A stretch of DNA of 64,000 nucleotides from a bacterium (GTDB taxonomy: Bacteria > Patescibacteriota > Microgenomatia > UBA10105 > UBA927), in NCBI GenBank assembly GCA_021817785.1, contig JAKAFY010000007.1:127-64126 (forward strand). The letters run 5' to 3'. Position 1 is the stretch's first letter. Each line of letters opens with the position of its first letter. The translations under genes were made by a program, and so were the position numbers. The notes beneath the pieces were generated by a model, which did no database searches, was not told the origin of the DNA, and saw nothing but the letters and a program-made list of their open reading frames with translations. This document shows positions 22,664 through 56,094 of this stretch, piece by piece.

Positions 22664-24625
22664 TTATGTACTACTTTTTGTATTACCAACTGCTTCTACC
22701 GTAAACATCGGACGATTTGATCTTGGGAGGGTGGGTGGAGCCGTCAGCTCGGGAGCCGAAGACAGAGATGGCGGCTTTTTTGACGGCAGTTCCTGCATTG
22801 TCGGCACGGAAGACTGTTGTACGGCGGGGGTAGTCGGTTTCACCGTTTCCTGTGGACGCGTCGTGGCAAGCGCATGTTCTTCAGGGCTTGATACAACGCG
22901 CATTGCCGCGTGTGCGGGGCCTGCAAAAAACAACCCCTCTCCGATATCGGCCGCAAGCAGCAAATGTTTTTCCCCTTCAGATAAATAAAATACGTCGGCG
23001 ATTTTATCTATAGCCGCCGAAGATTGCTTAAGGAGAATCTGCATACTGCTGTTTTGGATAATCGCCTTTCCCATCTCCGTAGCCATAAAATCTTCCACGT
23101 CCTGGGTAATGGTGGTAAGTCCGAGATAATATTTTCTGGCCCGCTTGGCAATGCTATAGAGAAATTGCGCGGAATCCGGATATTTCATGAGATACCACGC
23201 CTCATCGACAATGAGGAGTCTTTTGCGCTTGTCATTTCTGATTTTGTTCCAGATAAAGTCCAGGATAAGATACATGGCAATGGGTCGGAGTTCATCTTCC
23301 AGATCCCGGATGGAAAAAACGGTCAGTTGATTTCGGATAGCTACGTTGGTTTGTTGGTCAAATATGCCGACTAAACTGCCCCGGACAAACTTTTCTATGC
23401 GGTCCGCCAACCCCTTGGCGAGGGGTTCTTCCATGCCGACAAGCGTTTTATACAGATCTTCCATAAGGGGAGGTTCTTTTGCGTGTGTAGTAGGATCCGG
23501 GGTGATGCCTTTCTGTTTGTATGTGAGGATAAGCGCGCGATCCAGTAATGCGTCCTCCGTCGGGGTAAGTTTGCCCATGACGACGCGGAAAAACCCATGG
23601 AGCGATAATATTTTTTGGCTGAGCTCGCTTTCTTCTCCGGCGGCATTACCAAGAAGGGCTAAGTCAAAGGGGTTTAGTTTCGTAACGGATCCGAAGCGAA
23701 ACCGGATATATTCGCCTCCCAGTGCATGAGTGACAGATTCATATTCATTCTCAGGGTCGATGATAATAACTTCCGTATCGAACATGAGAGAACGCATAAC
23801 CTCGAGTTTTACCATGTAGCTTTTACCGCCACCGGATTTTCCGAACACAACGGAGTTGGCATTTTCCAGCGTAAAACGGTCAAAGATAATTAAGCTGTCA
23901 TTGTGTTCATTCATGCCATATAAGATGCCCTCGTTTGCCGTAAGTTCGCTGGTGGTGAATGGGAAGGTGGTCGCAAGCGACGTGGTATCCATGTTTCTGG
24001 TGACGAGCAGCCGGTCTCTTCCCATGGGAAGCGTGGTTTTTAGCCCTTCCTCCATTTGTAAAATGGCTTTTTTGGTGACGATAAGCAGAGAGCCGAGTGT
24101 CGCCTCCACTTGCTTTGTCGCTTTGTCCAGGTCCTCTTTTGTTTTTGCGGGGATCGTAACATAGAGGCCAAACTGGAAAAATCGTTCCGACCCTTTTGCT
24201 AATTCCTGCTGCAGGGCAAGGGCGTCTTCTAGTGCCACCTGGATAGACGGCTCGATAACGCGGCCGCGTTTCAGGTCAGATTGTATGGTGGCCTCCATTT
24301 CCCCGACCTTGCGTTTCAGGTTTTCCAGTATTTCTTCGCTCCGCGTAGGGTAGATGTACATGGAAATATCCAACGTATGGTTAAACGACACAAGGGGTTC
24401 TAGCCAGTTGGCGGAGACGAATCTTGGATACCCCGCGACAAACAACGTCCGGTAATACCAGTCACCGACCTTTAGTAAATCAAAGTCCACTTCGATAGCA
24501 GGAGGCGCAATGATGTCCGTGACGACTAGCGGGCCGTCAATCGGCTTGGTCCGTGGGGACGGCCCCTCTGGCATGGGATTGATAAATTTTTTGAAAAGCG
24601 CCGCAATATCCGTATTATTTGCCAT
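22664..24625 (-). CDS. virB4: VirB4/TrbE/CagE-family type IV secretion ATPase.
   Basis: Walker A 'FGKSGGGKSYMVK'. Walker B 'RKRLLIVDEAWYLM'. ~650 aa with a VirB4-like C-terminal ATPase region. Confidence 0.85.
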   Translation of the reverse strand: MANNTDIAALFKKFINPMPEGPSPRTKPIDGPLVVTDIIAPPAIEVDFDLLKVGDWYYRTLFVAGYPRFVSANWLEPLVSFNHTLDISMYIYPTRSEEILENLKRKVGEMEATIQSDLKRGRVIEPSIQVALEDALALQQELAKGSERFFQFGLYVTIPAKTKEDLDKATKQVEATLGSLLIVTKKAILQMEEGLKTTLPMGRDRLLVTRNMDTTSLATTFPFTTSELTANEGILYGMNEHNDSLIIFDRFTLENANSVVFGKSGGGKSYMVKLEVMRSLMFDTEVIIIDPENEYESVTHALGGEYIRFRFGSVTKLNPFDLALLGNAAGEESELSQKILSLHGFFRVVMGKLTPTEDALLDRALILTYKQKGITPDPTTHAKEPPLMEDLYKTLVGMEEPLAKGLADRIEKFVRGSLVGIFDQQTNVAIRNQLTVFSIRDLEDELRPIAMYLILDFIWNKIRNDKRKRLLIVDEAWYLMKYPDSAQFLYSIAKRARKYYLGLTTITQDVEDFMATEMGKAIIQNSSMQILLKQSSAAIDKIADVFYLSEGEKHLLLAADIGEGLFFAGPAHAAMRVVSSPEEHALATTRPQETVKPTTPAVQQSSVPTMQELPSKKPPSLSSAPELTAPPTLPRSNRPMFTVEAVGNTKSST

Positions 24626-25325
24626 GAGATTCCTTTCCGAATTCCAGAGCGCTCATGTCCGGAGCGGTTGCCCCCGGGTTATATAAACTGAACAGAAATT
24701 TCACGAGCTGTTCTGTCGTAAGTTGCGTAGCATGGAGGCCCACGCGCGCCAGCAAACGGACGATATGATCCCGTTTTGGGAGCAGGCCCATCTGCGCGCG
24801 CTCGTAGATATATGATTTTTCATACGGAAGGCCCGTTTTTTTGGTCCCCAACAGCATGGAGGGGGAGGCGCCCAGTTCAAGGTTGGAGAAGGGAATGACG
24901 ATGTAAAACTTTTTGTCTAACACGTCCTTTTCCTTCACCATGGATGCCACAAACGCTCGGTATCCGTGGATGCTTTTGGTAAGCTGCGGATTTTTTTGCC
25001 GCGCCTCCTGATCTTCGAGAAGTTTTAAATATGCGGAGATATCTTTATGCTTGGTCTGGATGATGATTTGTATGGGAAACGATAGAGAATTAAGCAGCCC
25101 TGCATACGAGTAAATGATGGCGTCCTGTTCTTTTTCGGAAAGCAGGCCGAAATTAACGGCCGTTGTAGCAATGACGAGGGAAACGGATCCGTCCGCAAAC
25201 AATATCATGTCGTGGTCGATATCGGAAATTTCAGTAAACGATTGTGTAGACGCTCTGATGGGCACGATAGGTTGTGTCATAGGCTGTGTGTTACATGGTA
25301 TTTTTCCCGAAAATTTCCTGCGCAA
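24615..25325 (-). CDS. Hypothetical soluble protein in the T4SS-like operon, between the Pro-rich membrane protein and virB4.
   Basis: Its stop overlaps the virB4 start. No TM segments and no recognisable motif. Confidence 0.3.
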   Translation of the reverse strand: MRRKFSGKIPCNTQPMTQPIVPIRASTQSFTEISDIDHDMILFADGSVSLVIATTAVNFGLLSEKEQDAIIYSYAGLLNSLSFPIQIIIQTKHKDISAYLKLLEDQEARQKNPQLTKSIHGYRAFVASMVKEKDVLDKKFYIVIPFSNLELGASPSMLLGTKKTGLPYEKSYIYERAQMGLLPKRDHIVRLLARVGLHATQLTTEQLVKFLFSLYNPGATAPDMSALEFGKESHGK

Positions 25326-26682
25326 GCTTTTCCCGGGTGAGCTGTTTTTGACTCTTCGCGATAATTTCCAGGGCGGGGACGACCGCGCCGTTTAATGTGA
25401 TTTGTACCCGGGAAAAGGTGAATCTGCCCCGCGGGTCCTCAATTTCGACAAAATATGTGCCTGACCCCAGCGGGGTGGATGCGGCAAATTGCCCCAACTT
25501 GTTTGTTTTAAGTGCACGCATGGGTATGCCCTCTGCATTGGTGACCGTGACCAGGATGCCGGGGAGCTGATTGCCTGCATCGTCTTTTGCAAGGCCGGTA
25601 ATGACGTTGGCCACGTTCGTCAATCGCGGAAGCCCGACTTTGGTCGCCGCATCTTGGGTGTTTATCACTCGAACGGTAGATTTTTCCTGTTTCTCCTGCG
25701 GGGGAGCCGTTCCGGTTTTTGGTGCCGACCCATCTTCTGGCACGGCCGTTGCCGCACTACCCGGTTGCCCGCGGGAAAGCAGCTGCCGTTTAAGGTTGAC
25801 CAACTCATCCTCCATGGCGGAACGCTGTTGCAATACGTCAGTCAGCTGCTGCTGCAGTTCAAGTACCCGGTCAGCAGTTACATTTTTTGTCGAAAGTTGT
25901 TCTTGCAGTGTCTTAAGCGATGATTCGAGGTCTGCCATCTTCTGTTGTGTGGCGGCAGCATCGGAAATTTGTTGTTGCTGCGGCTTTGGCATTGTGGGAA
26001 CGGATGGCGTCGGTTTTATACCGGTAACACTTGGGATTGGTGCTTGAGGAATCATGCGCGCCGCTGTCTGTTGATGGACTGGTGCCGGGCGCTGTGATGG
26101 CCCCCAAAGCTCCGCAAGCCATGCCCACGGAGATGACGAAGAGCGCGTGGTAGACGTGAGTGCCTGCGCTTTTTGTGGTGAAGATGCTGGCGTCTGAAAA
26201 ATTCCGGAAAGCACTGTTTTTGTAGCGTCAGACTTAGTCGCTGCCACCCCCGGAACAGCCGGTCTCGGAATGGGGGTAGGCTGGTGCTGGGGTGGAGCGG
26301 GAGTCGCCTGTGGGCGCGCTGCGACAGGCTCCGCTTTTGGCACTTCTTTTATCCAAATATATTGGGTCGGGTTATAGATGCTTTTGAAAAACGAAAATAC
26401 CCATACGTCCATTGGACGCTCTTCGACGGGAATAAACGCAAACCCAACTCCCAGGAACGCAAATGCAAACGCAAGCGGCCACGTGAGGATAAACGGCAAA
26501 GGCAGGCGGTAGGCCAAAAAGGCCAGGATCGCTCCGGCGCACAAGTACCCGAATTGTTTAAGGGTCATGTCGCCGATTAAGCGGAATTGAAACGTGGTGA
26601 CGTTTTGTGGCACGGGGTGCTGTTCCATACTATATATGATTGTAAAGGGAAAAAAATACATGTTCAATAGCACAAAGCGCAT
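25291..26682 (-). CDS. Bitopic/polytopic membrane protein. It has 2-3 N-terminal TM helices, a Pro/Gln-rich linker, a coiled coil and a C-terminal globular domain. Its architecture resembles VirB10/TcpC.
   Basis: N-terminal helices (LCAGAILAFLAYRL; LAFAFAFLGVGFAFI). 'PQATPAPPQHQPTPIPRPAVPG...' proline-rich tract. A coiled-coil segment (LESSLKTLQEQLSTK...). It is the first gene of the minus-strand operon. Confidence 0.3.
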   Translation of the reverse strand: MRFVLLNMYFFPFTIIYSMEQHPVPQNVTTFQFRLIGDMTLKQFGYLCAGAILAFLAYRLPLPFILTWPLAFAFAFLGVGFAFIPVEERPMDVWVFSFFKSIYNPTQYIWIKEVPKAEPVAARPQATPAPPQHQPTPIPRPAVPGVAATKSDATKTVLSGIFQTPASSPQKAQALTSTTRSSSSPWAWLAELWGPSQRPAPVHQQTAARMIPQAPIPSVTGIKPTPSVPTMPKPQQQQISDAAATQQKMADLESSLKTLQEQLSTKNVTADRVLELQQQLTDVLQQRSAMEDELVNLKRQLLSRGQPGSAATAVPEDGSAPKTGTAPPQEKQEKSTVRVINTQDAATKVGLPRLTNVANVITGLAKDDAGNQLPGILVTVTNAEGIPMRALKTNKLGQFAASTPLGSGTYFVEIEDPRGRFTFSRVQITLNGAVVPALEIIAKSQKQLTREKLAQEIFGKNTM

Positions 26683-26771: not shown

Positions 26772-28949
26772 ATGAATGCATCTCCGCTGGAGTGCCTGGA
26801 GGTTGTCGGGAATAGATTAAGTGAGGAAACGCCGCTTGCGATGGAACAGGTGTTTGCCGCATTTGCCAATGTACGACGGGAGGCACTGTGGCGCAGGATT
26901 TTTTGGCCGGGGAGGGTACAATACGCAAGTTTCGAAATAGCGGTGATGAACGGGCAGATCCATTTTTTTATCGTTATCCCGGCTCATCTCCGGAATTTTA
27001 TCGAAGGGCAGCTGACGGCGCAATATCCTCGAGTGGTTATTACGCCGATTGTTGATTATCTTCCGTCATTTTTTAGTCGGCCACATGCGATAGCAAGACT
27101 TCGGATGTGGAGCAGTTTTTATTACCCGCTTAAAACCTACGAGGACGTTAAAGACGTTGACTTATTGTCGGCGGTGTTGGGGCAGCTGGCAAAGTTGCCA
27201 GCTAATCAGGCCGTATCCATACAATTTCGGGTAACTCCGGCCGGGCGAGGGTGGCAGGCGCAGGCTGCGCACGTCATCGCACAGGGCGTTCCTGACCCGA
27301 ATTCTCAGTACGGCCGTACGCGTCAGCACCCCGATAGCAGAATTATCGAAACAAAACTAAGCGCCAGCGGATTACGGACAGGTATTCGCATAGTGGCAGC
27401 CGCATCAAGTGAATCTGAGGCATTTGACGTGCTAACGCGCGTTTCAGGATCATTCGGTGTGTATACGTTGGGAGGGGGGAATAGTTTGTTTCAGCCGCGC
27501 ACGTTTGTGTGGCAGAGAGATAGGCTTACCCGATCCATACTTAAACGTGGTATTTATCTTACGCCCCGAACGCACGTACTAAACACCAAAGAGCTTGCAT
27601 CATTGTGGCATCCTCCCGGCATGTCTCTTGCAACCGTAAAAAACATCCAGTGGGGGCGGGGCCTTTTGGGAGAGCCGCCGCAAAACCTGCCGGTGGCTAC
27701 CGACAATGAGGAGGAGCGGAAAACGATCAACTTTTTCGCAAAATGCGAATGGCGCAACCAACAGGTGACATTTGGGATCAAGCAGGCAGACAGGAGGAAG
27801 CACCTTTATATTATCGGAAAAACCGGCACCGGAAAATCCACGACGATTGCCAACATGGCTATAAATGATATGAAAAACGGCTCAGGCATGGCCATAATCG
27901 ATCCGCACGGGGATTTGTCAGAAATACTGCTGCAGTACATTCCCTCCAACCGCATTAATGATGTGGCCTATCTGGATCCGTCGGACAGTGAACATCCGTT
28001 TCACTTAAATCCCCTGGAAGTGAAAAACCCGACCTATCGAGAATTAGTGGCAAGCGGCATCGTATCGATATTTTACAAGCTGTATCACATGAGTTGGGGA
28101 CCCAGGTTGGAATATATATTGCGAAACACAATTCTCACGCTCACCCTGGTGCCGCAATCCACGTTCCTGGATATCCCGGAGCTGCTTACCAACGAACTGT
28201 TCCGACAGAAAATTGTGGATCGGTTGGAAGACCGGGTGCTCAAAAATTTTTGGGTGAACGAATTTAATAAATTTACCCCCCGGCTTCATAGTGAGTCAAC
28301 ATCCCCGATACTCAACAAAGTCGGACAATTTTTATCGTCACAGACCATCCGAAATATCGTGGGACATCCCACGTCAACGATCGATTTGGAAACCATGATG
28401 AACGAAGGTAAAATCGTTATCATGAACCTGTCCCAGGGAAAGCTGGGGGAGGATAATAGCGCATTGTTAGGCGCCATGATGATTACCAAGATGCAGTTGG
28501 CCGCGATGAACCGCGTATATCTTGCCGAAGATGAGCGGCGGGATTTTTATCTGTACGTCGACGAATTCCAAAACTTTGCGACGCAGTCATTTATCAAAAT
28601 TCTGTCGGAAGCGCGAAAATACCGCCTCAACCTCATTTTAGCCAACCAGTATATCGGCCAGATTGACGAGGACGTACAAAAGGCAATTTTCGGCAACGCC
28701 GGCTCGCTTGTGTCGTTTGGTGTCGGTGCGGCAGACGCGCGGCTTTTGACGCATGAGTTCGGCAGCAAATATGAGGAGCAGGAATTAGTGGGACTTGGCA
28801 ACTACCAGATCATATTGAAACTTGCGATCGATAATCAGACGTCTCTTCCGTTTTCCGCCATGACGCTTCCGTTGCCCAGGTCCCGTAACGAACACCGGGA
28901 CACCGTTATCCGCGTTTCTCGCGAACGGTATACAAAAAAGGTACAATAA
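26772..28949 (+). CDS. virD4: VirD4/TraG/TraD-like coupling ATPase (FtsK/HerA superfamily) lacking an obvious N-terminal TM domain.
   Basis: Walker A 'IIGKTGTGKSTT'. Walker B 'FYLYVDEFQNF'. ~725 aa. Divergent from the virB4 operon. Confidence 0.65.
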   Translation: MNASPLECLEVVGNRLSEETPLAMEQVFAAFANVRREALWRRIFWPGRVQYASFEIAVMNGQIHFFIVIPAHLRNFIEGQLTAQYPRVVITPIVDYLPSFFSRPHAIARLRMWSSFYYPLKTYEDVKDVDLLSAVLGQLAKLPANQAVSIQFRVTPAGRGWQAQAAHVIAQGVPDPNSQYGRTRQHPDSRIIETKLSASGLRTGIRIVAAASSESEAFDVLTRVSGSFGVYTLGGGNSLFQPRTFVWQRDRLTRSILKRGIYLTPRTHVLNTKELASLWHPPGMSLATVKNIQWGRGLLGEPPQNLPVATDNEEERKTINFFAKCEWRNQQVTFGIKQADRRKHLYIIGKTGTGKSTTIANMAINDMKNGSGMAIIDPHGDLSEILLQYIPSNRINDVAYLDPSDSEHPFHLNPLEVKNPTYRELVASGIVSIFYKLYHMSWGPRLEYILRNTILTLTLVPQSTFLDIPELLTNELFRQKIVDRLEDRVLKNFWVNEFNKFTPRLHSESTSPILNKVGQFLSSQTIRNIVGHPTSTIDLETMMNEGKIVIMNLSQGKLGEDNSALLGAMMITKMQLAAMNRVYLAEDERRDFYLYVDEFQNFATQSFIKILSEARKYRLNLILANQYIGQIDEDVQKAIFGNAGSLVSFGVGAADARLLTHEFGSKYEEQELVGLGNYQIILKLAIDNQTSLPFSAMTLPLPRSRNEHRDTVIRVSRERYTKKVQ

Positions 28950-33200: not shown

Positions 33201-34823
33201 CTAATGCCCGCCCTCTCCTCCTCCGGTGAGGCCACCAAACCCCTTTTGTGAGCCTTCGCGTATCGTTTGCATCGGAGATCGCGCATCCGGCTTGTGCCGA
33301 ATTGAGCTTGCGATAAATGAACCCTGATACCATAGTTGTGTAAGTTGACCAACGCCAGACCCCAGAGGTCCGATAACCGCCCCGACCCCTCCAGGGATAA
33401 ATGGTTCCGCCTTCAGCGCCTTTTTGATGCTGCCAACAATATTCGGGATGACGAGAAGCATCCCAAGTCCGATAAATCCGGCCATGCCCGTAACCCCTCC
33501 GCCGCTTGATAAAAGTGGCGGAGCCCATATTTTTTCCGCGTTGGTTTGCGAAGTAAGAAATCCCGCCACCAGAAGAAGTACTGCGGTGAGGGGAAACACG
33601 ATAATATTTGCGGTCAGCCATCGAAACCAGCTACTGAATGAATTGGTGCCCGGGATGGCCTCCAGCATGAGCTGGAATGGTGAAAATAACAGAGAAATAA
33701 TAATATTGATATATGCGTCCACAAGCATAAAAATCAGACGGATAATTCCAAAGATTAAAACGATAAGAACGATAAGAAGAAGCAGGACCGGACCGTTTGT
33801 AAGTCCGACGGCTATGGCGGAAGCCTTTCCACCGCCTCCGATTAAGTAGGTGAGGACCCCCTGTACGACCATTGCAGTTCCAACCTGACCTGGAGTGAGA
33901 TTGCCTATCAAAAGTCTGCCAATATCATCAAGCGCCTGGAATCCGCTTGCGAAAAAGAATCGGAGCGTTCCCCATATGCCGCCATTCAATAATGTATTAA
34001 CGACCTGCGGAGTAGAGGTAGACGTGGTTGTAAACGACGGAAGCCACGTGGCCGGGCTTAATAAATTTGGATTCCACAGCCAGCTTGCCCCGGCGTTCAC
34101 GAGGGATCCAAGCGATCCATCGGGTGTGGCTCCGATGATGAGCCCGGCGGCGAGAACAATGATAAGGTACATAAGGTCAATCATAAGTCCCACGATTGCA
34201 TATGAAAATGTGACGAGAAGAAGTGCGATGACCACCCTGGGGATAGCATTTTGCACGGTTACAACTGTTTTGGGATCGATTTTTTTTCTAAACATGACCA
34301 TAAAACCGATAATGATGAGAATAACGGCAAGAAGTGCATAAGCGACGTTACGAAACGCTTTCCAAATGGGGAGCAGTACGCTAAGTCCGGAAAAACCGAT
34401 GCCCTGCGCATACGTTTGTTTGGGCATAAATCCGAGTGTCTCTCCAAGATCGCGGATGGCGAACGCAGTTGTCGCAGGGGGAGTGGTATAAAGCGCAAGC
34501 GTAACACTTGAAAGCCCGGCAAGCGCACTGTGACTATATGCGGCTTTTGCAGGACATCCTCCGACGAAATAGGCTCCGGCTATGCTAATAGTGTCCTGAA
34601 ACATGTAATTGTTATTGGACGAAGCCTGTGGCGTTGTTCCCTCGGCACACGCACCCATGATGCTGTAAATAATGCCCACCATGGAATTATTTTGTGTCGC
34701 AATATTTCCTCCCTCAAGACCAAGAGGAGTGGGATCTTCTGCGCGGACGGAGGTGGGAAATGCAAAAAAAACGGTTACGCCAATGAGAAGAGGAAGAATC
34801 AACAATAGGACAGCACGTTTCAT
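33201..34823 (-). CDS. VirB6/TrbL-like polytopic inner-membrane channel protein.
   Basis: Signal peptide (MKRAVLLLILPLLIGVTVFFAFPTSVRA). A ~130-aa extracytoplasmic region, then 5 or more TM helices, and a Gly-rich C-terminal tail. Located directly downstream of the pilin array. Confidence 0.45.
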   Translation of the reverse strand: MKRAVLLLILPLLIGVTVFFAFPTSVRAEDPTPLGLEGGNIATQNNSMVGIIYSIMGACAEGTTPQASSNNNYMFQDTISIAGAYFVGGCPAKAAYSHSALAGLSSVTLALYTTPPATTAFAIRDLGETLGFMPKQTYAQGIGFSGLSVLLPIWKAFRNVAYALLAVILIIIGFMVMFRKKIDPKTVVTVQNAIPRVVIALLLVTFSYAIVGLMIDLMYLIIVLAAGLIIGATPDGSLGSLVNAGASWLWNPNLLSPATWLPSFTTTSTSTPQVVNTLLNGGIWGTLRFFFASGFQALDDIGRLLIGNLTPGQVGTAMVVQGVLTYLIGGGGKASAIAVGLTNGPVLLLLIVLIVLIFGIIRLIFMLVDAYINIIISLLFSPFQLMLEAIPGTNSFSSWFRWLTANIIVFPLTAVLLLVAGFLTSQTNAEKIWAPPLLSSGGGVTGMAGFIGLGMLLVIPNIVGSIKKALKAEPFIPGGVGAVIGPLGSGVGQLTQLWYQGSFIASSIRHKPDARSPMQTIREGSQKGFGGLTGGGEGGH

Positions 34824-34877: not shown

Positions 34878-35174
34878 TTAATTTACCGGTATGGAAAACG
34901 TTGTAACATTGACGCCCGTAAATTGTTGAATGGTAAGTATTATAAGGTACGCAATAGACATAATGGCGAGACCGATGATGGCTTGGGTAATCGTGCCTCG
35001 CGCCGTTTCCAGTTTCTTGGGGTCACCTCCGGAAAACAGAAAATTATATCCGCCCACCAAAAGCATGATAAACAATGCTACCGCCCCTAAGCCGATAACT
35101 GCCCGAACGATTCCTTCAAAAAGGGGGACAAGACATTGAATAGTTGCGGCCCCGTCAATTGCGCAATTGTTCAT
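34878..35174 (-). CDS. VirB2/TrbC-like pilin paralog 1.
   Basis: Two hydrophobic helices flank a conserved core 'GGYNFLFSGGDPKKLETARGTITQAIIGLAIM'. Confidence 0.55.
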   Translation of the reverse strand: MNNCAIDGAATIQCLVPLFEGIVRAVIGLGAVALFIMLLVGGYNFLFSGGDPKKLETARGTITQAIIGLAIMSIAYLIILTIQQFTGVNVTTFSIPVN

Positions 35175-35225
35175 ATGACATCATTATCTCGTATTTCTTC
35201 AGAAGGGACAAGCAATCGATAATGA

Positions 35226-35564
35226 TTAGTATGGTTTCGGGAAGTTTATAGACCCGCCGATGATCTGTACGCCCAGGAAGTTCTGGACGAGCGTCATGAT
35301 GGCCCATGCGGATCCTACGATGATGAGTCCGACAATAGCGTGGGTAATTTTGTTGCGGGCTTCTTCCATGCCGGCTTTATCTCCGCCGGAGGTGATCCAT
35401 TTAATGCCGCCTAAGACAAGGTAGAGAAATGCCAAAAGAGCGGCAATAATCAGTGTTGTGCCGACCAATGCACTAATCAGTTGGCCAAGATCCGTGATCT
35501 TAATCGTGTCCGGCTGTTTCAGATTTAATGATGCCTGTGCGTAAACTGTTTCTATAAGTGCCAT
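35226..35564 (-). CDS. VirB2/TrbC-like pilin paralog 2.
   Basis: Core 'GGIKWITSGGDKAGMEEARNKITHAIVGLIIVGSAWAIMTLV'. N-terminal 'YAQAS'. Confidence 0.55.
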   Translation of the reverse strand: MALIETVYAQASLNLKQPDTIKITDLGQLISALVGTTLIIAALLAFLYLVLGGIKWITSGGDKAGMEEARNKITHAIVGLIIVGSAWAIMTLVQNFLGVQIIGGSINFPKPY

Positions 35565-35676
35565 AGGTTTCCTCCGTCAAATCAATCTTTATTATATCCT
35601 ATACCCCATTCTTGCGCAAATTTGTCGGCCTTGTCAACACCGAGCTTTATCAAGCAGCGACACGGGAAACAAATCG

Positions 35677-36024
35677 CTATTGGCCCATGGTCGGCAGATG
35701 CAAGTTCGGGAAATCGATACCCAAAAATCCGCCCACAAGCGTCATGATTGCCCATATGGCTCCCACGATAATAAGCCCGATAATGGCATTGGTAATCTCA
35801 TCCCGTGCGGCCTGGAGCTTCGCCTTGTCTCCGCCCGAGGTAATCCAGTTAAATCCGCCGAGCAACAGATACATAAATGCGACGACGAACGAAAAAATGA
35901 CAAACGCGCCGATAAAGTTCGAAATAAGGGATCCGATGGCAGATGAGCCGTCCGCGTTGCCGCCGCCACCCAATGAGCTCGGAAGTACCGGGTTGGTTAT
36001 TTGTGCGAGCGCGTGCGTTATCAT
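35677..36024 (-). CDS. VirB2/TrbC-like pilin paralog 3.
   Basis: Core 'GGFNWITSGGDKAKLQAARDEITNAIIGLIIVGAIWAIMTLV'. N-terminal 'HALAQI'. Confidence 0.55.
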   Translation of the reverse strand: MITHALAQITNPVLPSSLGGGGNADGSSAIGSLISNFIGAFVIFSFVVAFMYLLLGGFNWITSGGDKAKLQAARDEITNAIIGLIIVGAIWAIMTLVGGFLGIDFPNLHLPTMGQ

Positions 36025-36029
36025 ATCGG

Positions 36030-36404
36030 TTATTGATTCGGACTAAGCCGGTTAATCAGATCTCCAGGACTGGAAATAGTAAAGTCAACGCCAAAAAATG
36101 TCCCGGCAAGCGCTAATATAGCCCACGCGGCAACCACAACAATAAGCCCGATAAATGCGTTGGTCAGTTTATCGCGGGCGGTTTGCAGCTTTGCCTTATC
36201 GCCGCCGGCGGAAATCCAGCTGAATCCGCCAATCAAAAACTGGATAAGAAACCAAATCCCTGCGGCGATCGTCATGAGGCCAACGACTGAGGAGATTATT
36301 TTTGTTATCCCCATGAGCCCGGAGGTTCCGTCGCTGCTGTTGGCGAATGGCCCGAGGCCTGCGCCACCGATTTGACCGAGCGGTACTTGTGCTAAAGGTT
36401 TCAT
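36030..36404 (-). CDS. VirB2/TrbC-like pilin paralog 4.
   Basis: Core 'GGFSWISAGGDKAKLQTARDKLTNAFIGLIVVVAAWAILALA'. N-terminal 'MKPLAQV'. Confidence 0.55.
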   Translation of the reverse strand: MKPLAQVPLGQIGGAGLGPFANSSDGTSGLMGITKIISSVVGLMTIAAGIWFLIQFLIGGFSWISAGGDKAKLQTARDKLTNAFIGLIVVVAAWAILALAGTFFGVDFTISSPGDLINRLSPNQ

Positions 36405-36405
36405 A

Positions 36406-36759
36406 CTATTGCGGGCCGTAGATTACCGGATTTAGGATCGAGAATCCCGGTCCGAAAATGAGATAGCCAAACAGTGACGCGATGGCAAACGATGCCACCA
36501 TGATGACCAGCCCCATAAGTGACTGCCATATGCGGGACCACGCCTTTTCCAGTTTTTTGCTGTCGCCTCCCGCATTGATGTATTCAAATCCGGCGATGAG
36601 AAAGTTAAATAATGCGTATATGCCAGCCACAACAAACAACAAACGGATAATGTTGGTGATAAACAGCCCAACTCCGCCCAGATTGCCATAGCTGGTGCCC
36701 ATGAGCGGACTCTGAACCGTTCCGAAAATCGGTGCGACGTCTACAGCAAGTACTTTCAT
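36406..36759 (-). CDS. VirB2/TrbC-like pilin paralog 5 (the most divergent).
   Basis: Core 'AGFEYINAGGDSKKLEKAWSRIWQSLMGLVIMVASFAIASLFG'. Confidence 0.5.
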   Translation of the reverse strand: MKVLAVDVAPIFGTVQSPLMGTSYGNLGGVGLFITNIIRLLFVVAGIYALFNFLIAGFEYINAGGDSKKLEKAWSRIWQSLMGLVIMVASFAIASLFGYLIFGPGFSILNPVIYGPQ

Positions 36760-36765
36760 AAAACG

Positions 36766-37074
36766 TTAAAATCCCAGTAATTTTTGACCGGTGATGACAC
36801 TGATAATTTGTACGATCCAAAATGACCCGAATACTACAAGCAATCCGATAACCGCGCCCGTTATCGCGGCTTTGCCCTGTTCCGCTTTTTTGGCGTCGCC
36901 TGCGGCTACTATAACTTGAAAACCGCCGAAAATCAATAAAAAGAAGCTTATAAGACTGGCAAAAACAAACGCATTCCGGACGATTGCGGTGACCAACGGG
37001 CCAAAGGACGTGAGTCCCGGGTTCGGGGCGAGATTTGCAATATCTATAGAGTCCGCAAGCACTTTTTCGATCAT
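36766..37074 (-). CDS. VirB2/TrbC-like pilin paralog 6. The start is placed at the internal Met (MIEKVL...) of the longer 36766..37224 ORF.
   Basis: Core 'GGFQVIVAAGDAKKAEQGKAAITGAVIGLLVVFGSFWIVQII'. The longer ORF would run into the divergent sigma-factor promoter region. Confidence 0.45.
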   Translation of the reverse strand: MIEKVLADSIDIANLAPNPGLTSFGPLVTAIVRNAFVFASLISFFLLIFGGFQVIVAAGDAKKAEQGKAAITGAVIGLLVVFGSFWIVQIISVITGQKLLGF

Positions 37075-37092: not shown

Positions 37093-37674
37093 TTGAGGCG
37101 GGCAGTCAATTATGCTATAGTCATACGTTGTCTCATGGATGATACAACGCTTATCAAACGATTGTTTGCCCACGACCGGAAATCCGTCTCCGCGTTTTAT
37201 CACGAATACGCCCCGCAATTGCACCGATTTATCCTGGGACGCGTTGCATTTTCCCAGGATGCAGAAGAGATTTTACAGGATACCCTGTTTGCATTTTTGG
37301 AAGGCCTTCGGGATTTTCAGGGGAAAAGCAGTATCCGGACATATCTGTTTTCCATTTGTCAGCACAAAATAATCGACTACTATCGCCGGAAGAAAATAAA
37401 GCATCTGGTGTTTTCCCAGGTTCCGCAGCTTGAAATGCTGGTATCTCCGCTGATGGGGCCCGAGGCATCACTCGATGAAAAGCTGGTAAAAGAGAAAATC
37501 CAGAAAGTACTTTCCCGGATTGCCCCTGTATACCGCCAGGTGCTGGTACTCAAATATCTGGAGCAGGTGCCGGTTGAGGAAATTGCCCAAAAACTTTCCA
37601 TATCGTTTAAAAGTGCGGAGTCACGGCTTTTCCGTGCCCGAAAAAATTTCGTGGAGCTGTTTTTGTCTATCTAA
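37093..37674 (+). CDS. RNA polymerase sigma-70 factor, ECF subfamily.
   Basis: Region 2 'LQDTLFAFLEGLRDF...YLFSICQHKIIDYYRRK'. Region 4 'YRQVLVLKYLEQVPVEEIAQKLSISFKSAESRLFRARKNF'. ~190 aa. Confidence 0.85.
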   Translation: MRRAVNYAIVIRCLMDDTTLIKRLFAHDRKSVSAFYHEYAPQLHRFILGRVAFSQDAEEILQDTLFAFLEGLRDFQGKSSIRTYLFSICQHKIIDYYRRKKIKHLVFSQVPQLEMLVSPLMGPEASLDEKLVKEKIQKVLSRIAPVYRQVLVLKYLEQVPVEEIAQKLSISFKSAESRLFRARKNFVELFLSI

Positions 37675-37677
37675 CCT

Positions 37678-37908
37678 ATGAGCAGCATTGCCTATCAGCG
37701 GTTTATGAAACGATGGGAAGAAGTGACGGATTTGCCTCCTCAGTCCCTGGGGCCGCTGACCGGCGTATACAAATGGTGCACGAAACGGTTTAAAGTCATG
37801 CCGTGGCCGTGGTTTATCGGCGTCAGCATCGTCATTGCGATAGGGATATATATCATATTGGGATCCGCCATTTCGTATCTTGTCACGTTGCTCCAGAGGG
37901 GGTTTTAG
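37678..37908 (+). CDS. Small single-TM protein directly downstream of the ECF sigma. Candidate anti-sigma factor.
   Basis: 76 aa with a C-terminal TM 'WPWFIGVSIVIAIGIYIILGSAI'. Four bp downstream of the sigma stop. Its position is the only functional evidence. Confidence 0.3.
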   Translation: MSSIAYQRFMKRWEEVTDLPPQSLGPLTGVYKWCTKRFKVMPWPWFIGVSIVIAIGIYIILGSAISYLVTLLQRGF

Positions 37909-37961: not shown

Positions 37962-38585
37962 ATGGACGTTCTAACGGCGCTCGTCGTGGGGGGGATTGGT
38001 TTCGGCAGGACCGCTATCGGGCTGGTCACGCGGCCCTATGAAACCTATCGCCGGATAGTCAGCTATAGCAGGATTAGTGAGTTGGTGTTTGTCGGGCTTT
38101 TCGCGGGCATCTATTTTGCGTTTGCAAGCATGGTGAAGGGGGCCGCCTTCCGTCCGTTTCTTTTTACGCGCCAATTTATCGTTTTGTATGCGGCGGCTGC
38201 GGGGGGCTACGGTATCGCCATTGGCTCTCTGTGGTTGGCAGGTGTAGTGCTACGGGCCACGTTTCATCTGCGTGCGCTGTTTCTTGCGTGGGGATATACA
38301 TTACTGCCGACGGTTGCATGGTTTTTGGCAACCTCGCTTCTGTATGTGATCCTTCCTCCTCCGCGGACCACCAGCACGCTGGGTATCGCTTTCAGCATAT
38401 TGTTTTTGATATTTAGCGCGACGCTGTTTTGGTGGAAAATGATGCTGTCCTACCTTACGCTCCGTTTTGTGTTTAAATTTGATTTATCCCGCATCGGGAT
38501 GGCAAGTATGATCGTACTTCCGATTATGGCTGCCTATAGCGTACTCATGTACTACTGGGGCATATTTAAAATTCCGTTTTTATGA
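37962..38585 (+). CDS. Hypothetical polytopic membrane protein. The start is taken at the internal Met of ORF 37803..38585.
   Basis: Five or more hydrophobic helices. Its stop overlaps the HMG-CoA reductase start. Confidence 0.3.
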   Translation: MDVLTALVVGGIGFGRTAIGLVTRPYETYRRIVSYSRISELVFVGLFAGIYFAFASMVKGAAFRPFLFTRQFIVLYAAAAGGYGIAIGSLWLAGVVLRATFHLRALFLAWGYTLLPTVAWFLATSLLYVILPPPRTTSTLGIAFSILFLIFSATLFWWKMMLSYLTLRFVFKFDLSRIGMASMIVLPIMAAYSVLMYYWGIFKIPFL

Positions 38586-40788: not shown

Positions 40789-40823
40789 AGAATGCAGGGT
40801 GAGAGATGGGGGCTCGTACAGCG

Positions 40824-40862
40824 CTCTAAACTCTAAACTCTAAACTCTAAACTCTAAACTCT
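40824..40862. repeat. Heptanucleotide tandem repeat (CTCTAAA)x5.6 immediately abutting the thiolase start codon.
   Basis: Read directly from the sequence: gcgCTCTAAACTCTAAACTCTAAACTCTAAACTCTAAACTCTatg. Confidence 0.9.
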
Positions 40863-42002: not shown

Positions 42003-42120
42003 TATGCCAGGTAGTAGAGTTTCGACACGCTATTTTCATTGCGCATCGAATAGATTACCTGAACATATAGAATAGGTATGAAAAGAAAGGAGATCGAAAT
42101 TTTCACCGCGTAAAAACGCA

Positions 42121-42444
42121 ATGGTCGAAATTTCACTACCTGGTATGCAAAGTCCGGTCAAAATTTGGCGGAATCAGAAGAATATTGCGCAACTTCTCGG
42201 GAAAACCGGAACAATCGTTTCGTGGACGCTCATCCGCGTGCCGCCCGGCGACTTTATGGACCAGGCACCGTACCCTGTGGTATTAGCGGAGTTAGAAGAC
42301 GGAAAACGCATAGAGGCGCAATTGGTGGATTGGAAAGACACACATCTTGCATTCGGTACAAAGGTAAAAACAGTTATCCGCTGCGTCATGCGTCCGGATG
42401 CTGATGGAGTGATACCCTATGGCATAAAAGTGAAACCCATTTAG
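42121..42444 (+). CDS. DUF35 OB-fold protein (scaffold of the thiolase/HMG-CoA synthase complex).
   Basis: 107-aa OB-fold-type sequence directly downstream of the thiolase, as in archaeal operons. 'VSWTLIRVPPG...VVLAELEDGKRIEAQL'. Confidence 0.55.
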   Translation: MVEISLPGMQSPVKIWRNQKNIAQLLGKTGTIVSWTLIRVPPGDFMDQAPYPVVLAELEDGKRIEAQLVDWKDTHLAFGTKVKTVIRCVMRPDADGVIPYGIKVKPI

Positions 42445-42479
42445 GGTTTCATCCCGAGTTTATCGCAGGATCTTACTTT

Positions 42480-46582: not shown

Positions 46583-46918
46583 TTATTGGCCGAAGATCGC
46601 GCCAATGCTGCTTTGCCAGCCGAAGATTATCCCTGCAATCTGCACGATCCAGAACGCGGCGAATATGATAAGGAATCCAATGATCGCATTGGTCAGAGTA
46701 GCCTTTCCCTTTTCCATTTTTTTTGGGTCCCCGGCTGAGGTCATAAGCGTAAATCCGCTTGCGATAATCATCAGAAGGAGTCCTATCCCGGCAAATCCGA
46801 AGATGTATGAAAGCGACTGGCCGATGATGGTTCCGATAGTGGCATTTGCAAACGCAAAATTTTGTGGTCCCTGGATAGTATAATCACCAATAGAAAAAGA
46901 TTGCGCGAGTAATTTCAT
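46583..46918 (-). CDS. VirB2/TrbC-like pilin paralog 7 (remote copy).
   Basis: Core 'SGFTLMTSAGDPKKMEKGKATLTNAIIGFLIIFAAFWIVQIAG'. N-terminal 'MKLLAQS'. Confidence 0.5.
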   Translation of the reverse strand: MKLLAQSFSIGDYTIQGPQNFAFANATIGTIIGQSLSYIFGFAGIGLLLMIIASGFTLMTSAGDPKKMEKGKATLTNAIIGFLIIFAAFWIVQIAGIIFGWQSSIGAIFGQ

Positions 46919-47418
46919 AGCCCAGATTTCCCCCCGCCAAATCCCGGCAGAGTTAATATGTCAACTCCGATGAGTTTGAGGAGAAATACCGAAAAAATGA
47001 TAAGAAGCAATCCGGAAATTGCAGCAGTCATAAGTTCTTTGGCGGCGTGCAGCTTTTCCGGATTGCCGGTACTGGTAATTGTCTGAAATCCTGAAAATAA
47101 AATAAGCAAAAACGCAACACCGCCCCCTATGCTCGTACCAATTTGGATAAACGACTGAAGAAAGTCGTTGAGTGATGAACCCGTGCCGCCGCCTCTACCA
47201 AGACAGCCCACCGCGGTCCACGCGCCGCCCGAGTTAAAACAGCCAGTGCAATCGCTTTGAGCGGATCCAGAGAGAGATTTACACGTATTTTGGCCCACCG
47301 AGGTTGGAGCGTCCGCCAAAACATTTAAAGCAGTAAATGTCTCATGCATGGCAGGCAAGCCCAAAAAAAGGCCCAAGCTGAAAAAAAATAAATATAGCGA
47401 CAGAACAGCCCGTTTCAT
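46915..47418 (-). CDS. Pilin-like protein with a signal peptide and a Cys-rich N-terminal extension (paralog 8; possible minor/tip pilin). The start is taken at the internal Met (MKRAVL...) of ORF 46915..47496.
   Basis: Signal peptide 'MKRAVLSLYLFFFSLGLFLGLPAM'. Four Cys in 'CKSLSGSAQSDCTGCFNSGGAWTAVGC'. C-terminal core 'SGFQTITSTGNPEKLHAAKELMTAAISGLLLIIF'. Confidence 0.45.
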   Translation of the reverse strand: MKRAVLSLYLFFFSLGLFLGLPAMHETFTALNVLADAPTSVGQNTCKSLSGSAQSDCTGCFNSGGAWTAVGCLGRGGGTGSSLNDFLQSFIQIGTSIGGGVAFLLILFSGFQTITSTGNPEKLHAAKELMTAAISGLLLIIFSVFLLKLIGVDILTLPGFGGGKSGL

Positions 47419-53026: not shown

Positions 53027-53147
53027 CTCCGCCCCGATAAAAATATCGGGGCTTCGCGTGGCAAGCCACATTAGACATCTGGGTGACCTTGTTTTTTGTG
53101 CGGAGTGTGTCCCGCGTAGTCCCATATTGAAGGGACGTAGTGGGACA

Positions 53148-54831: not shown

Positions 54832-54832
54832 C

Positions 54833-55465: not shown

Positions 55466-55486
55466 AATGATATAATGTGCTCATCT

Positions 55487-56075: not shown

Positions 56076-56094
56076 CGAAACAAGAGATGTATAT

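What the first reader, a model, noticed from the sequence alone, without database searches (positions are those of the whole stretch)
34878..37074. Six tandem VirB2/TrbC-like pilin paralogs, plus two more at 46.6-47.4 kb, with a conserved core and hypervariable termini
Six consecutive small genes of 98-124 aa on the minus strand share an invariant core, roughly GGF.WI(T/S)(S/A)GGD(K/P)(K/A)K...AR..IT.A.IGL. The core is flanked by two hydrophobic helices. The N-terminal leaders differ but often contain an '(L/Y)AQ' motif that could mark a processing site. The C-terminal ~15-25 residues also differ. Two more paralogs lie 10 kb away at 46583..47418; one carries a signal peptide and a four-Cys N-terminal extension. 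Eight pilin paralogs in one genome region is unusual. It suggests structural, antigenic or functional diversification of the pilus subunit, for example major and minor pilins or host-specific variants.
Basis: seen in the sequence. Interest (0 to 1): 0.75.

Follow-up and report, generated by a model that had tools for sequence, protein, structure and literature searches.

The report
Patescibacteria secretion-system pilin gene array

Summary
Eight minus-strand genes (six in tandem at 34878-37074, two at 46583-47418) are paralogs. All match Pfam PF18895 T4SS_pilin, and no other ORF in the window does. They lie in a chromosomal monoderm-type T4SS locus (VirB4, TrsD-like, PrgI/VirB3-like, coupling protein, M23 hydrolase) beside dnaA/dnaN. 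The closest relatives are Candidatus Gottesmanbacteria (Microgenomatia, Patescibacteria).

This kind of locus is published. PMC12102498 reports 441 arrays of 2-11 VirB2-like pilins, especially in Microgenomatia. PMC10633639 shows the pilin series is essential in Southlakia.

- "Unusual": 44 related loci carry a median of 7 copies.
- "Hypervariable termini": the tails are paralog-specific but conserved among orthologs, with dN/dS below 1.

No sequence-level link to TrbC/VirB2 (PF04956) is detectable. The fold is a plain helical hairpin.

What I did not find in the papers read:
- Gene order P8-P7…P6-P5-P4-P3-P2-P1 is conserved one-to-one across about 60 species-level genomes.
- P2 is the best conserved copy and the only one with a conserved promoter-like element and Shine-Dalgarno site.
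- All eight weakly match a Mycoplasma ICE "pilin-like" family.
- The conserved downstream 540-aa membrane protein is a candidate divergent VirB6.

The parts
36766..37074 (-). P6, first gene of the six-gene array (102 aa), PF18895-like hairpin protein
   Evidence: PF18895 E 2.6e-5, 24.6 bits, just under the gathering score. The start Met is conserved in about 90% of 52 orthologs. Always the first array position in related loci.
36406..36759 (-). P5 (117 aa)
   Evidence: PF18895 24.4 bits. Orthogroup-specific conserved C-tail FILNPxIYGP. Gap to P6 is a median of 5 nt.
36030..36404 (-). P4 (124 aa)
   Evidence: PF18895 34.6 bits. Conserved N-tail LGxIGGxGLGPFG.
35677..36024 (-). P3 (115 aa)
   Evidence: PF18895 31.6 bits. 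N-tail LAQIxNPVLP is conserved among 62 orthologs.
35591..35637 (-). Conserved composite promoter-like element in the P3-P2 spacer (TTGACA-N12-TTGCGCAAGAATG-N-TATAAT). A GGAGG Shine-Dalgarno site follows, 7 nt before the P2 ATG.
   Evidence: Promoter scan, 10 of 12 matches. The same composite motif is present in 35 of 54 orthologous spacers, essentially nowhere else in the loci, and once in the window.
35226..35564 (-). P2 (112 aa), candidate major or most abundant subunit
   Evidence: Best PF18895 score, 41.9 bits. Orthologs are 61-89% identical, against 43-80% for the other copies. Core column identity 0.72-0.86. Core dN/dS 0.019. The only paralog with a conserved SD: a GGAGG, GGAG or AGGA motif in 44 of 57 orthologs. 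The AF2 model has helices 23-58 and 63-97.
34878..35174 (-). P1 (98 aa), last array gene, with two Cys in its short N-tail
   Evidence: PF18895 30.0 bits. C4 and C14 are the majority residue in roughly 60-70% of 57 orthologs.
46915..47418 (-). P8 (167 aa): signal peptide, 4-Cys extension, then pilin hairpin
   Evidence: PF18895 30.5 bits at residues 81-149. The four Cys are conserved in the four orthologs recovered. Same relative position in related loci.
46583..46918 (-). P7 (111 aa); its start overlaps the P8 stop by 4 nt
   Evidence: PF18895 41.3 bits. Orthologs always follow P8.
33201..34823 (-). Conserved polytopic membrane protein directly downstream of P1 (540-aa ORF, called as 533 aa). 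Candidate divergent VirB6.
   Evidence: Follows P1 in 39 of 44 loci. No Pfam or NCBIfam family. The top Foldseek PDB hit is TrwI/VirB6 (E 0.31), followed by DotA and further VirB6 chains, none significant; the model has pLDDT 62.
22664..24625 (-). VirB4-like ATPase
   Evidence: NCBIfam conju_CD1110, 397.7 bits against a cutoff of 325. Pfam P-loop_TraG and AAA_10.
24615..25325 (-). TrsD / VirB4 N-terminal-like protein (236 aa)
   Evidence: NCBIfam VirB4_plasma positions 104-280, E 2.5e-8; TrsD E 3.1e-5. Both are below their cutoffs.
25291..26682 (-). PrgI (VirB3-like) family protein
   Evidence: Pfam PF12666, 29.3 bits against a cutoff of 27.
26772..28949 (+). VirD4-like coupling protein
   Evidence: Pfam TrwB_AAD_bind, TraG-D_C and DUF87. 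NCBIfam CD1115 family, sub-threshold.
20478..22658 (-). M23 peptidase-domain protein next to VirB4; possible cell-wall hydrolase of the system
   Evidence: Pfam PF01551 E 5.7e-10. The role is inferred from position only.
37093..37674 (+). ECF-type sigma factor transcribed divergently from P6; candidate regulator
   Evidence: Pfam Sigma70_r2 and r4_2. Same position in 40 of 44 loci. The regulatory link is inferred.

Best explanation
Shown: the eight genes are paralogous members of the PF18895 'T4SS_pilin' family. Each is a roughly 75-residue helix-loop-helix membrane hairpin with short, paralog-specific N- and C-tails. They lie in the chromosomal, monoderm-type (MPF-FATA-like) type IV secretion locus of a Gottesmanbacteria-like Patescibacterium, next to dnaA. 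This is the published 'VirB2-like pilin array' of Patescibacteria.

Also shown: the eight copies are eight separate orthogroups, kept one-to-one and in the same gene order across the lineage, under purifying selection.

Inferred mechanism:
- Each protein inserts into the membrane with the K/R-rich loop in the cytoplasm and both tails outside.
- The VirB4 ATPase, together with the downstream VirB6-like platform, extracts and polymerises them into one heteromeric envelope-crossing filament or conduit.
- P2 is the abundant building block. The other seven serve as non-redundant minor, initiating, tip or adaptor subunits.
- P8, and the large fusion proteins seen in relatives, display extra extracellular domains.
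- The structure would mediate host contact or transfer in an epibiotic lifestyle.
For: Family and context: PF18895 hits for all eight. All eight also match NCBIfam NF045849 'pilin-like conjugal transfer protein' (E 1.2e-9 to 6.5e-3, sub-threshold). VirB4, TrsD, PrgI, a coupling protein and an M23 peptidase lie within 10-14 kb, with dnaA and dnaN adjacent. The relatives are Gottesmanbacteria, Woesebacteria and Microgenomates.

Literature: arrays of 2-11 pilins, mean identity 25% and maximum 54%, abundant in Microgenomatia, with the T4SS near dnaA (PMC12102498). The pilin series is essential in S. epibionticum (PMC10633639; PMC12857230).

Non-redundancy: the best-hit order P8 P7 P6 P5 P4 P3 P2 P1 is complete in 46 loci and collinear in 12 truncated ones, out of 79. 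The whole neighbourhood is syntenic. Tails carry orthogroup-specific conserved motifs. dN/dS is 0.02-0.18 in the core and 0.06-0.42 in the tails. The longest DNA repeat among the copies is only 64-70% identical, so no recent gene conversion is visible.

Topology: the loop has 3-4 K/R (2 in P8) and the tails 0-2, apart from the four in P8's N-terminal region, which includes its signal peptide. The only copy with a long N-extension has a signal peptide, and the Cys residues lie in the N-tails. The AF2 model is a hairpin.

P2 as major subunit.
Against: No filament has been observed from any Patescibacteria T4SS in the papers I read. Monoderm T4SSs normally lack pili.

No sequence or profile similarity to bona fide VirB2 was found. 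Fold searches cannot separate this hairpin from hundreds of unrelated helical hairpins.

Promoter and SD motifs are consensus matches, not expression data. The VirB6 assignment of the 540-aa protein is not significant (E 0.31).

The dN/dS estimates rest on few pairs (2-28 per orthogroup), short regions, and dS near 0.9 for five of the six orthogroups.
Confidence: 0.6

Rival explanations
1. Alternative major pilins for antigenic or host-range variation, which is the first reader's idea and the suggestion in PMC12102498. Each copy could build a homopolymeric pilus on its own, and the cell would switch between them to fit different hosts or evade recognition.
For: Low identity between copies, 24-55%. 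The parts predicted to be exposed (the tails) differ most between paralogs: column identity is 0.20 in the N-tail against 0.39 in the loop. There is precedent in Bartonella and Anaplasma, cited in PMC12102498.
Against: One-to-one orthology and fixed order hold across about 60 species-level genomes, with no copy-number turnover within Gottesmanbacteria. Tails are conserved within each orthogroup and have dN/dS below 1. No gene-conversion tracts are seen. Junctions between P6, P5, P4 and P3 are 3-5 nt, which implies co-translation rather than switching. The array is essential in Southlakia.
Confidence: 0.15
2. Membrane-resident parts of the secretion channel rather than a pilus. The hairpins would stay in the cytoplasmic membrane as a heteromeric ring or stalk around the VirB6-like and VirB3/VirB4 core and never form an extracellular fibre.
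For: Monoderm MPF-FATA systems have no pilus (PMC12102498, PMC12857230). There is no detectable homology to true VirB2. The fold is a generic two-helix membrane hairpin. Eight fixed subunits would suit a defined complex.
Against: The only family-level matches are to models named pilin or pilin-like. P8 and the 600-1277-aa Cys-rich fusion proteins in Woesebacteria-like loci carry large secreted domains on the hairpin. That suits surface display, although it does not exclude a membrane anchor.
Confidence: 0.2
3. Generic small membrane proteins, such as holin-like proteins, that are alike only through hydrophobic composition and have no functional tie to the T4SS.
For: Weak Pfam hits to Phage_holin_3_6 (E 0.24-0.28), tetraspanin and various DUFs.
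Against: Those hits are far below threshold. A conserved polar loop motif is shared by all eight. The family HMM finds no other membrane protein in the window. Synteny with T4SS genes is conserved across dozens of genomes.
Confidence: 0.03

Closest known systems
VirB2-like pilin arrays of Patescibacteria T4SS (Quinonero-Coronel et al. 2025, PMC12102498; essential pilin series of Southlakia epibionticum, Wang et al. 2023, PMC10633639)
   Same: Same Pfam family (PF18895) and same tandem arrangement. The intra-array identity is equally low: here a maximum of 55%, against a reported maximum of 54%. Same T4SS partners (VirB4, TrsD, PrgI, coupling protein), same position near dnaA, and same class (Microgenomatia).
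   Different: Nothing essential differs. This locus has 6+2 copies, split by a mevalonate-pathway block. I add that the copies are positionally conserved orthogroups, that P2 carries its own conserved promoter-like element and SD site, and that a candidate VirB6 follows the array. PMC12102498 reports VirB6 as scarce in Microgenomatia.
TrbC/VirB2 conjugative pilins of diderm T4SS (Pfam PF04956; T-pilus VirB2, PDB 8cue/8exh)
   Same: Small two-helix hairpin with a basic connecting loop and both termini predicted outside. Encoded with VirB4 and a coupling protein.
   Different: No sequence or profile similarity. No long cleavable leader in at least six of the eight. Monoderm host. Eight different copies instead of one major pilin. 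No VirB5 was recognised.
Mbov_0395 / MMCAP2_0565 'pilin-like conjugal transfer protein' of Mycoplasma ICEs (NCBIfam NF045849)
   Same: All eight paralogs align to nearly the full 80-position model (E 1.2e-9 to 6.5e-3). That family sits beside the Mycoplasma ICE VirB4 (Mbov_0397 family), which also matches this window's VirB4 and TrsD-like genes.
   Different: All scores are below the curated 40-bit cutoff, so the eight are not members. Mycoplasma ICEs are mobile elements, and the family's copy number per element was not examined here. I could not fetch Mycoplasma sequences for a reciprocal test.
Multi-copy VirB2 paralogs of Bartonella and Anaplasma T4SS
   Same: Several divergent pilin genes lie in or near one T4SS locus.
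   Different: Those are PF04956 proteins in diderm pathogens and are thought to vary for immune evasion (as cited in PMC12102498). Here the copies are ancient, ordered and under purifying selection.

Membership tests
Pfam PF18895 T4SS_pilin | HMM score at or above the gathering score (26.6 bits) | tested here: met
   P1 30.0, P2 41.9, P3 31.6, P4 34.6, P7 41.3 and P8 30.5 bits are above it. P5 at 24.4 and P6 at 24.6 are just below, but both are significant (E about 3e-5) and are clear paralogs of the others.
Pfam PF18895 T4SS_pilin | Two hydrophobic helices joined by a short polar loop | tested here: met
   AF2 model of P2: helices 23-58 and 63-97, with pLDDT of 89-95 over most of the two helices. 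Hydropathy and charge by region for all eight.
Patescibacteria VirB2-like pilin array (PMC12102498) | [quoted passage not shown] | tested here: met
   Six consecutive genes plus an overlapping pair.
Patescibacteria VirB2-like pilin array (PMC12102498) | Located near virB4 and other MPF-FATA-type components, in a Patescibacteria genome | tested here: met
   VirB4 (CD1110 family, above cutoff) lies 10 kb away with six genes between. TrsD-like, PrgI and coupling protein are present. The closest loci are Gottesmanbacteria, Woesebacteria and Microgenomates.
Patescibacteria VirB2-like pilin array (PMC12102498) | High divergence within the array (reported mean 25%, maximum 54%) | tested here: met
   Identity to P1 in the multiple alignment is 24-34%. 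Local BLASTP gives a mean of 36% and a maximum of 55%.
TrbC/VirB2 (Pfam PF04956) | Match to the family HMM or profile | tested here: not met
   No PF04956 hit at E<=1 for any of the eight. hhalign against 20 PF04956 VirB2 sequences gives probability 1.1-1.2%, and against the single VirB2 sequence 0.5%.
TrbC/VirB2 (Pfam PF04956) | Long N-terminal leader removed by signal peptidase | tested here: not met
   Stop codons lie 2-6 codons upstream of the starts of P1-P5. The P6 start is fixed by its orthologs. P7 has no signal-like N-terminus as read from its ATG. Only P8 has a signal-peptide-like N-terminus.
TrbC/VirB2 (Pfam PF04956) | Structural match to solved conjugative pilins | tested here: inconclusive
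TrbC/VirB2 (Pfam PF04956) | Polymerises into an extracellular pilus | not testable with these tools
   Needs microscopy or proteomics.
NCBIfam NF045849 Mbov_0395 pilin-like conjugal transfer protein | Score at or above the curated cutoff (40 bits) | tested here: not met
   All eight hit the model, but below the cutoff. The best E is 1.2e-9, P2 scores 25.5 bits, and P1 16.1 bits.
Holins (for example Pfam PF07332) | Match to a holin family HMM | tested here: not met
   Only E 0.24-0.28 and 11.7-11.9 bits against a cutoff of 28.4, for two of the eight.
VirB6/TrbL (for the downstream 540-aa protein) | Sequence or structural match to VirB6 | tested here: inconclusive
   No Pfam or NCBIfam hit. The top Foldseek hit is TrwI/VirB6 8rt9_F at E 0.31 and probability 0.72, and four further VirB6 chains are listed. 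None is significant, and the model has pLDDT 62.

The most novel reading that the evidence does not exclude
The eight copies are obligate, non-interchangeable subunits of a single heteromeric VirB2-like filament or conduit in a monoderm. Its gene order has been fixed since before Gottesmanbacteria and Woesebacteria diverged. P2 is the major subunit, and hairpin-anchored extracellular domains (P8, and the large fusions in relatives) act as tip or adhesin modules. The family would descend from the pilin-like protein of monoderm MPF-FATA elements (the Mycoplasma ICE family NF045849) rather than being borrowed from diderm VirB2, as PMC12102498 left open.
Probability: 0.3. Interest if true: 0.65.

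Novelty: already known. Interest (0 to 1): 0.3.

Why it matters
The Patescibacteria T4SS is essential for the epibiotic lifestyle in the one species tested, yet its function is unknown (PMC11665869, PMC12857230). The pilin array is its oddest feature, because monoderm T4SSs normally have no pilus.

This window adds no new kind of system. The comparative result does narrow the hypotheses. Fixed one-to-one orthology and purifying selection argue for a multi-subunit structure rather than antigenic variation. The data also nominate a major subunit (P2), a candidate VirB6 platform in a class where VirB6 was reported as scarce, and a possible monoderm origin of the pilin. Each of these can be tested in cultivable Saccharibacteria or by metatranscriptomics.

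Tried and rejected
It was repeated with P2, P3 and P4.
- A profile of the eight against all PDB sequences gave only a designed helical repeat protein and a viral glycoprotein, so it was uninformative.
- hhalign against VirB2, as a single sequence and as a 20-sequence profile, showed no similarity. The suggested alignment was also topologically inconsistent.
- The afdb50 fold library was unavailable. PDB Foldseek was used for the 540-aa protein, and the result was suggestive but not significant.
- The bioRxiv 2026 paper on a 'novel pilus system in CPR' (PamA/PamB) describes an Ig-fold, donor-strand pilus and is unrelated.
- The holin reading was rejected.
- '(L/Y)AQ' as a signal-peptidase site was rejected because there is no room for a leader.
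- Recent gene conversion was rejected: the best DNA repeat is 166 nt at 64-70% identity.
- The dN/dS analysis is limited. Only 2-28 ortholog pairs per orthogroup had dS below 1, and none did for P7 or P8.
Full report
**Observation**

The region 34878-37074 holds six consecutive minus-strand ORFs of 98, 112, 115, 124, 117 and 102 aa. Two more, of 111 and 167 aa, lie at 46583-47418. I name them in transcription order:
- P8 (46915-47418) and P7 (46583-46918)
- P6 (36766-37074), P5 (36406-36759), P4 (36030-36404), P3 (35677-36024), P2 (35226-35564), P1 (34878-35174)

All eight match Pfam PF18895 'T4SS_pilin' with E from 1.1e-10 to 3.1e-5. Six are above the gathering score; P5 and P6 miss it by 2 bits. 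An HMM built from the eight recovers exactly these eight among 840 six-frame ORFs of the window and nothing else at E<=10, although the window encodes many other membrane proteins. So the similarity is not mere hydrophobic composition.

In pairwise BLASTP, 27 of 28 pairs are significant, with a mean local identity of 36% and a maximum of 55% for P2-P3. The shared motif is the polar loop GGxxWITSGGDKxKLxxARxxITxAIIGL between two hydrophobic helices. Only three columns are strictly invariant, so 'invariant core' overstates it.

**Context and organism**

The array lies in a T4SS locus next to the replication origin genes dnaA (16817-18184) and dnaN (18362-19471). The locus contains:
- an M23-peptidase protein (20478-22658)
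- a VirB4-like ATPase (22664-24625; NCBIfam CD1110 family, 398 bits against a cutoff of 325)
- a 236-aa TrsD / VirB4 N-terminal-like protein (24615-25325)
- a PrgI/VirB3-like protein (25291-26682)
- a VirD4-like coupling protein (26772-28949)
- a 1206-aa protein of unknown function (29579-33199)
- a 540-aa polytopic membrane protein (33201-34823)
- the six pilin genes
- a divergently transcribed ECF sigma factor (37093-37674)

A scan of species-representative genomes with P2, P3 and P4 returned 79 loci. Those with informative titles are nearly all Candidatus Gottesmanbacteria, Woesebacteria, Microgenomates or 'Patescibacteria group', at 40-69% identity. An identical P2 protein exists in NCBI, ENA and Logan assemblies. 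The window therefore comes from a Gottesmanbacteria-like member of the class Microgenomatia in the Candidate Phyla Radiation.

**What is already known**

PMC12102498 (Microbial Genomics 2025) searched 3,035 Patescibacteria genomes with PF18895 and other pilin HMMs. It reports 441 'VirB2 arrays' of 2-11 pilin genes, in tandem or separated by one gene. [quoted passage not shown] Mean intra-array identity is 25% and the maximum 54%. The T4SS is MPF-FATA-like and often lies near dnaA.

PMC10633639 (Cell 2023) showed by Tn-seq that the series of predicted pilins in the T4SS cluster of Southlakia epibionticum is essential. A 2025 review calls them six structurally conserved, sequence-divergent VirB2-like pilins (PMC12857230).

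The finding is thus one instance of a published kind of locus. Eight copies is not unusual for this lineage. In 44 related loci of at least 20 kb I count a median of 7 pilin ORFs, with a range of 3-11.

**Is it VirB2/TrbC?**

Not demonstrably.
- No paralog hits PF04956 at E<=1.
- A profile of the eight finds no solved pilin in the PDB.
- I confirmed the A. tumefaciens VirB2 sequence against PDB 8cue, collected PF04956 homologues and aligned 20 of them. hhalign of that profile against the window profiles gives a probability of about 1%, with a topologically inconsistent alignment. The single VirB2 sequence gives 0.5%.
- The AF2 model of P2 (pLDDT 76, rising to 89-95 over most of the two helices) is a two-helix hairpin, residues 23-58 and 63-97.

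The architecture is compatible with a VirB2-type pilin, but the fold is too simple to prove it. 'VirB2-like' therefore rests on the Pfam family name, the topology and the genomic company.

One further link emerged. All eight paralogs match NCBIfam NF045849, the 'Mbov_0395 family pilin-like conjugal transfer protein' of Mycoplasma ICEs, over nearly the whole model. E ranges from 1.2e-9 to 6.5e-3, and all scores are below the 40-bit cutoff. The Mycoplasma ICE VirB4 model also matches this locus's VirB4 and TrsD-like genes. PMC12102498 states that VirB2-like pilins are absent from MPF-FATA systems and left open a co-option from diderm systems. These hits suggest a pilin-like hairpin may be native to monoderm systems. 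I could not run the reciprocal test.

**Are the copies diversifying variants?**

The comparative data say no.
- Assigning every pilin ORF in the 79 loci to its best window paralog gives the same order, P8 P7 … P6 P5 P4 P3 P2 P1. The order is complete in 46 loci and collinear in 12 loci cut by contig ends. Most of the rest are collinear with extra copies, chiefly P2 duplicates in Woesebacteria-like genomes.
- The surrounding genes are syntenic too: SpoIID-like, P8, P7, UppS, the mevalonate genes, a membrane protein, sigma, P6-P1, the 540-aa protein, the 1206-aa protein, the coupling protein, PrgI and VirB4.
- Woesebacteria-like loci lack the mevalonate block, so P8 and P7 sit about 1.5 kb from the array. 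The 'two more 10 kb away' therefore belong to the same ancestral locus.
- Within orthogroups the tails are less conserved than the core. Column identity is 0.32-0.47 for N-tails and 0.33-0.65 for C-tails, against 0.43-0.86 for the core.
- The tails still align with few gaps and carry orthogroup-specific motifs. Examples are P5 FILNPxIYGP, P2 QPxxIKITDIGQLISA and IIGGxxNFPKPY, P4 LGxIGGxGLGPFG, P3 LAQIxNPVLP, the two Cys of P1 and the four Cys of P8.
- Nei-Gojobori dN/dS on ortholog pairs with dS below 1 gives 0.02-0.18 for the core and 0.06-0.42 for the tails. Selection is relaxed in the tails but still purifying. This rests on few pairs, short regions and dS near 0.9 for five of the six orthogroups.
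- The best DNA-level repeat among the copies is 166 nt at 64-70% identity, so there is no sign of recent gene conversion.

I did not find positional orthology discussed in PMC12102498.

**Anatomy that points to a mechanism**

Each loop holds 3-4 Lys/Arg (2 in P8), while the tails hold 0-2, apart from P8's N-terminal region, whose four include two in its signal peptide. By the positive-inside rule the loop is cytoplasmic and both tails are outside, which is the membrane topology of conjugative pilins.

Three further observations are consistent with that topology:
- The only copy with a long N-terminal extension (P8) has a signal peptide.
- The Cys residues lie in the N-tails.
- In Woesebacteria-like loci, 600-1277-aa secreted, Cys-rich proteins end in a pilin hairpin.

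The junctions P6-P5, P5-P4 and P4-P3 are a median of 3-5 nt, which suggests translational coupling. P3-P2 and P2-P1 have spacers with medians of 85 and 73 nt.

The P3-P2 spacer carries a composite promoter-like element at window 35591-35637 on the minus strand: TTGACA-N12-TTGCGCAAGAATG…TATAAT. It reads as two overlapping sigma-70-type promoters and contains the palindrome TTGCGCAA. It is present in 35 of 54 orthologous spacers, essentially nowhere else in the loci, and once in the window.

P2 is also the only paralog with a conserved Shine-Dalgarno site. A GGAGG, GGAG or AGGA motif occurs in 44 of 57 orthologs, against fewer than 15% of orthologs for the other copies. P2 is the most conserved orthogroup as well: 61-89% identity and core dN/dS of 0.019. 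I infer that P2 is the abundant subunit.

The 540-aa membrane protein follows P1 in 39 of 44 loci. It has no Pfam or NCBIfam family. Its top Foldseek PDB hit is the VirB6 homologue TrwI (E 0.31, probability 0.72), followed by DotA and further VirB6 chains. None is significant and the model is mediocre, so it is only a candidate for the divergent VirB6 that PMC12102498 reports as scarce in Microgenomatia.

**Best explanation and rivals**

Shown: this is a PF18895 pilin-family array of the Patescibacteria chromosomal T4SS, made of eight ancient, ordered orthogroups under purifying selection.

Inferred (overall confidence 0.6): the eight are non-redundant subunits of one heteromeric filament or conduit, assembled from the membrane by VirB4 and a VirB6-like platform. 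P2 would be the major subunit, and the others would act as minor, initiating, tip or adaptor subunits used for host contact or transfer.

Rivals:
- Alternative major pilins for antigenic or host-range variation (0.15). This is disfavoured by the fixed orthology, the purifying selection and the tight coupling of the genes.
- A membrane-resident channel complex that never forms a fibre (0.2). This cannot be excluded without microscopy.
- Unrelated small membrane proteins or holins (0.03). This is rejected.

**Verdict**

The feature is real and correctly located. Its interpretation as pilin-family paralogs is right at the level of PF18895 and wrong in detail (VirB2/TrbC membership, rarity, hypervariability, leader motif). 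The phenomenon is already published, so novelty is 'already known' and interest is modest (0.3). The increments listed above are hypotheses worth testing in cultivable Saccharibacteria.

Noticed in passing
window 35591-35637 (-), with a GGAGG about 7 nt before the P2 ATG at 35564: A conserved composite promoter-like element (TTGACA-N12-TTGCGCAAGAATG-N-TATAAT, containing the palindrome TTGCGCAA) and a strong Shine-Dalgarno site lie only in front of P2. The motif is found in 35 of 54 orthologous spacers and once in the window.
   Followed up: yes
window 33201-34823 (-): A 540-aa polytopic membrane protein with no Pfam or NCBIfam family follows the pilin array in nearly all related loci. Its best structural hits are VirB6 (TrwI) and DotA, but none is significant. 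It may be the divergent VirB6 that the literature calls scarce in Microgenomatia.
   Followed up: partly
L065 2391-6221; L071 10633-13422; L073 8692-11565; L074 10477-13482; L075 6094-7881; L077 10495-13494: In Woesebacteria-like relatives, a 600-1277-aa secreted, Cys-rich protein ending in a pilin hairpin sits between P1 and the homologue of the 540-aa protein. It looks like a pilin-anchored extracellular domain. The window has no such fusion.
   Followed up: partly
all eight pilin genes (34878-37074, 46583-47418): All eight give sub-threshold, near full-length matches to NCBIfam NF045849, the 'Mbov_0395 family pilin-like conjugal transfer protein' of Mycoplasma ICEs. This hints that a pilin-like hairpin exists in monoderm MPF-FATA systems, contrary to the statement in PMC12102498.
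   Followed up: partly
window 24615-25325 (-) and 22664-24625 (-): VirB4 appears to be split into a 236-aa TrsD / VirB4 N-terminal-like ORF and a 653-aa ATPase ORF that overlap by 11 nt.
   Followed up: partly
window 37093-37674 (+) and 37678-37908 (+): An ECF-type sigma factor is transcribed divergently from P6. It is followed by a 76-aa ORF with one hydrophobic segment, possibly an anti-sigma factor. The sigma gene holds this position in 40 of 44 related loci.
   Followed up: partly
window 38582-45864 (+): A complete mevalonate-pathway block separates P7/P8 from the array: HMG-CoA reductase, HMG-CoA synthase-like, thiolase, two GHMP kinases (one fused to NUDIX) and diphosphomevalonate decarboxylase, followed by UppS at 45899-46582. 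The block is present in most Gottesmanbacteria-like loci (HMG-CoA reductase, synthase and thiolase detected in 33 of 44). Its HMG-CoA genes and thiolase were not detected in any of the Woesebacteria-like loci (some keep the kinase or decarboxylase genes).
   Followed up: partly
window 54746-63949 (+): A cluster of seven tRNA genes includes five tRNA-Ser. One, at 56159-56243, is called with the unusual anticodon ACT by ARAGORN, and Rfam also supports it as a tRNA. A tmRNA lies at 52595-53027.
   Followed up: no
window 29579-33199 (+): A 1206-aa protein with no Pfam or NCBIfam match lies between the coupling protein and the 540-aa protein. A homologue was detected at this position in 18 of 44 related loci.
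   Followed up: no
loci L001, L003, L004, L007 and many others: Many MAG records titled 'uncultured Gammaproteobacteria' or 'uncultured Pseudomonadales' ('binchicken' or 'SRP…_co' isolates) carry this Gottesmanbacteria-type locus with full synteny. Their organism labels look wrong.
   Followed up: no
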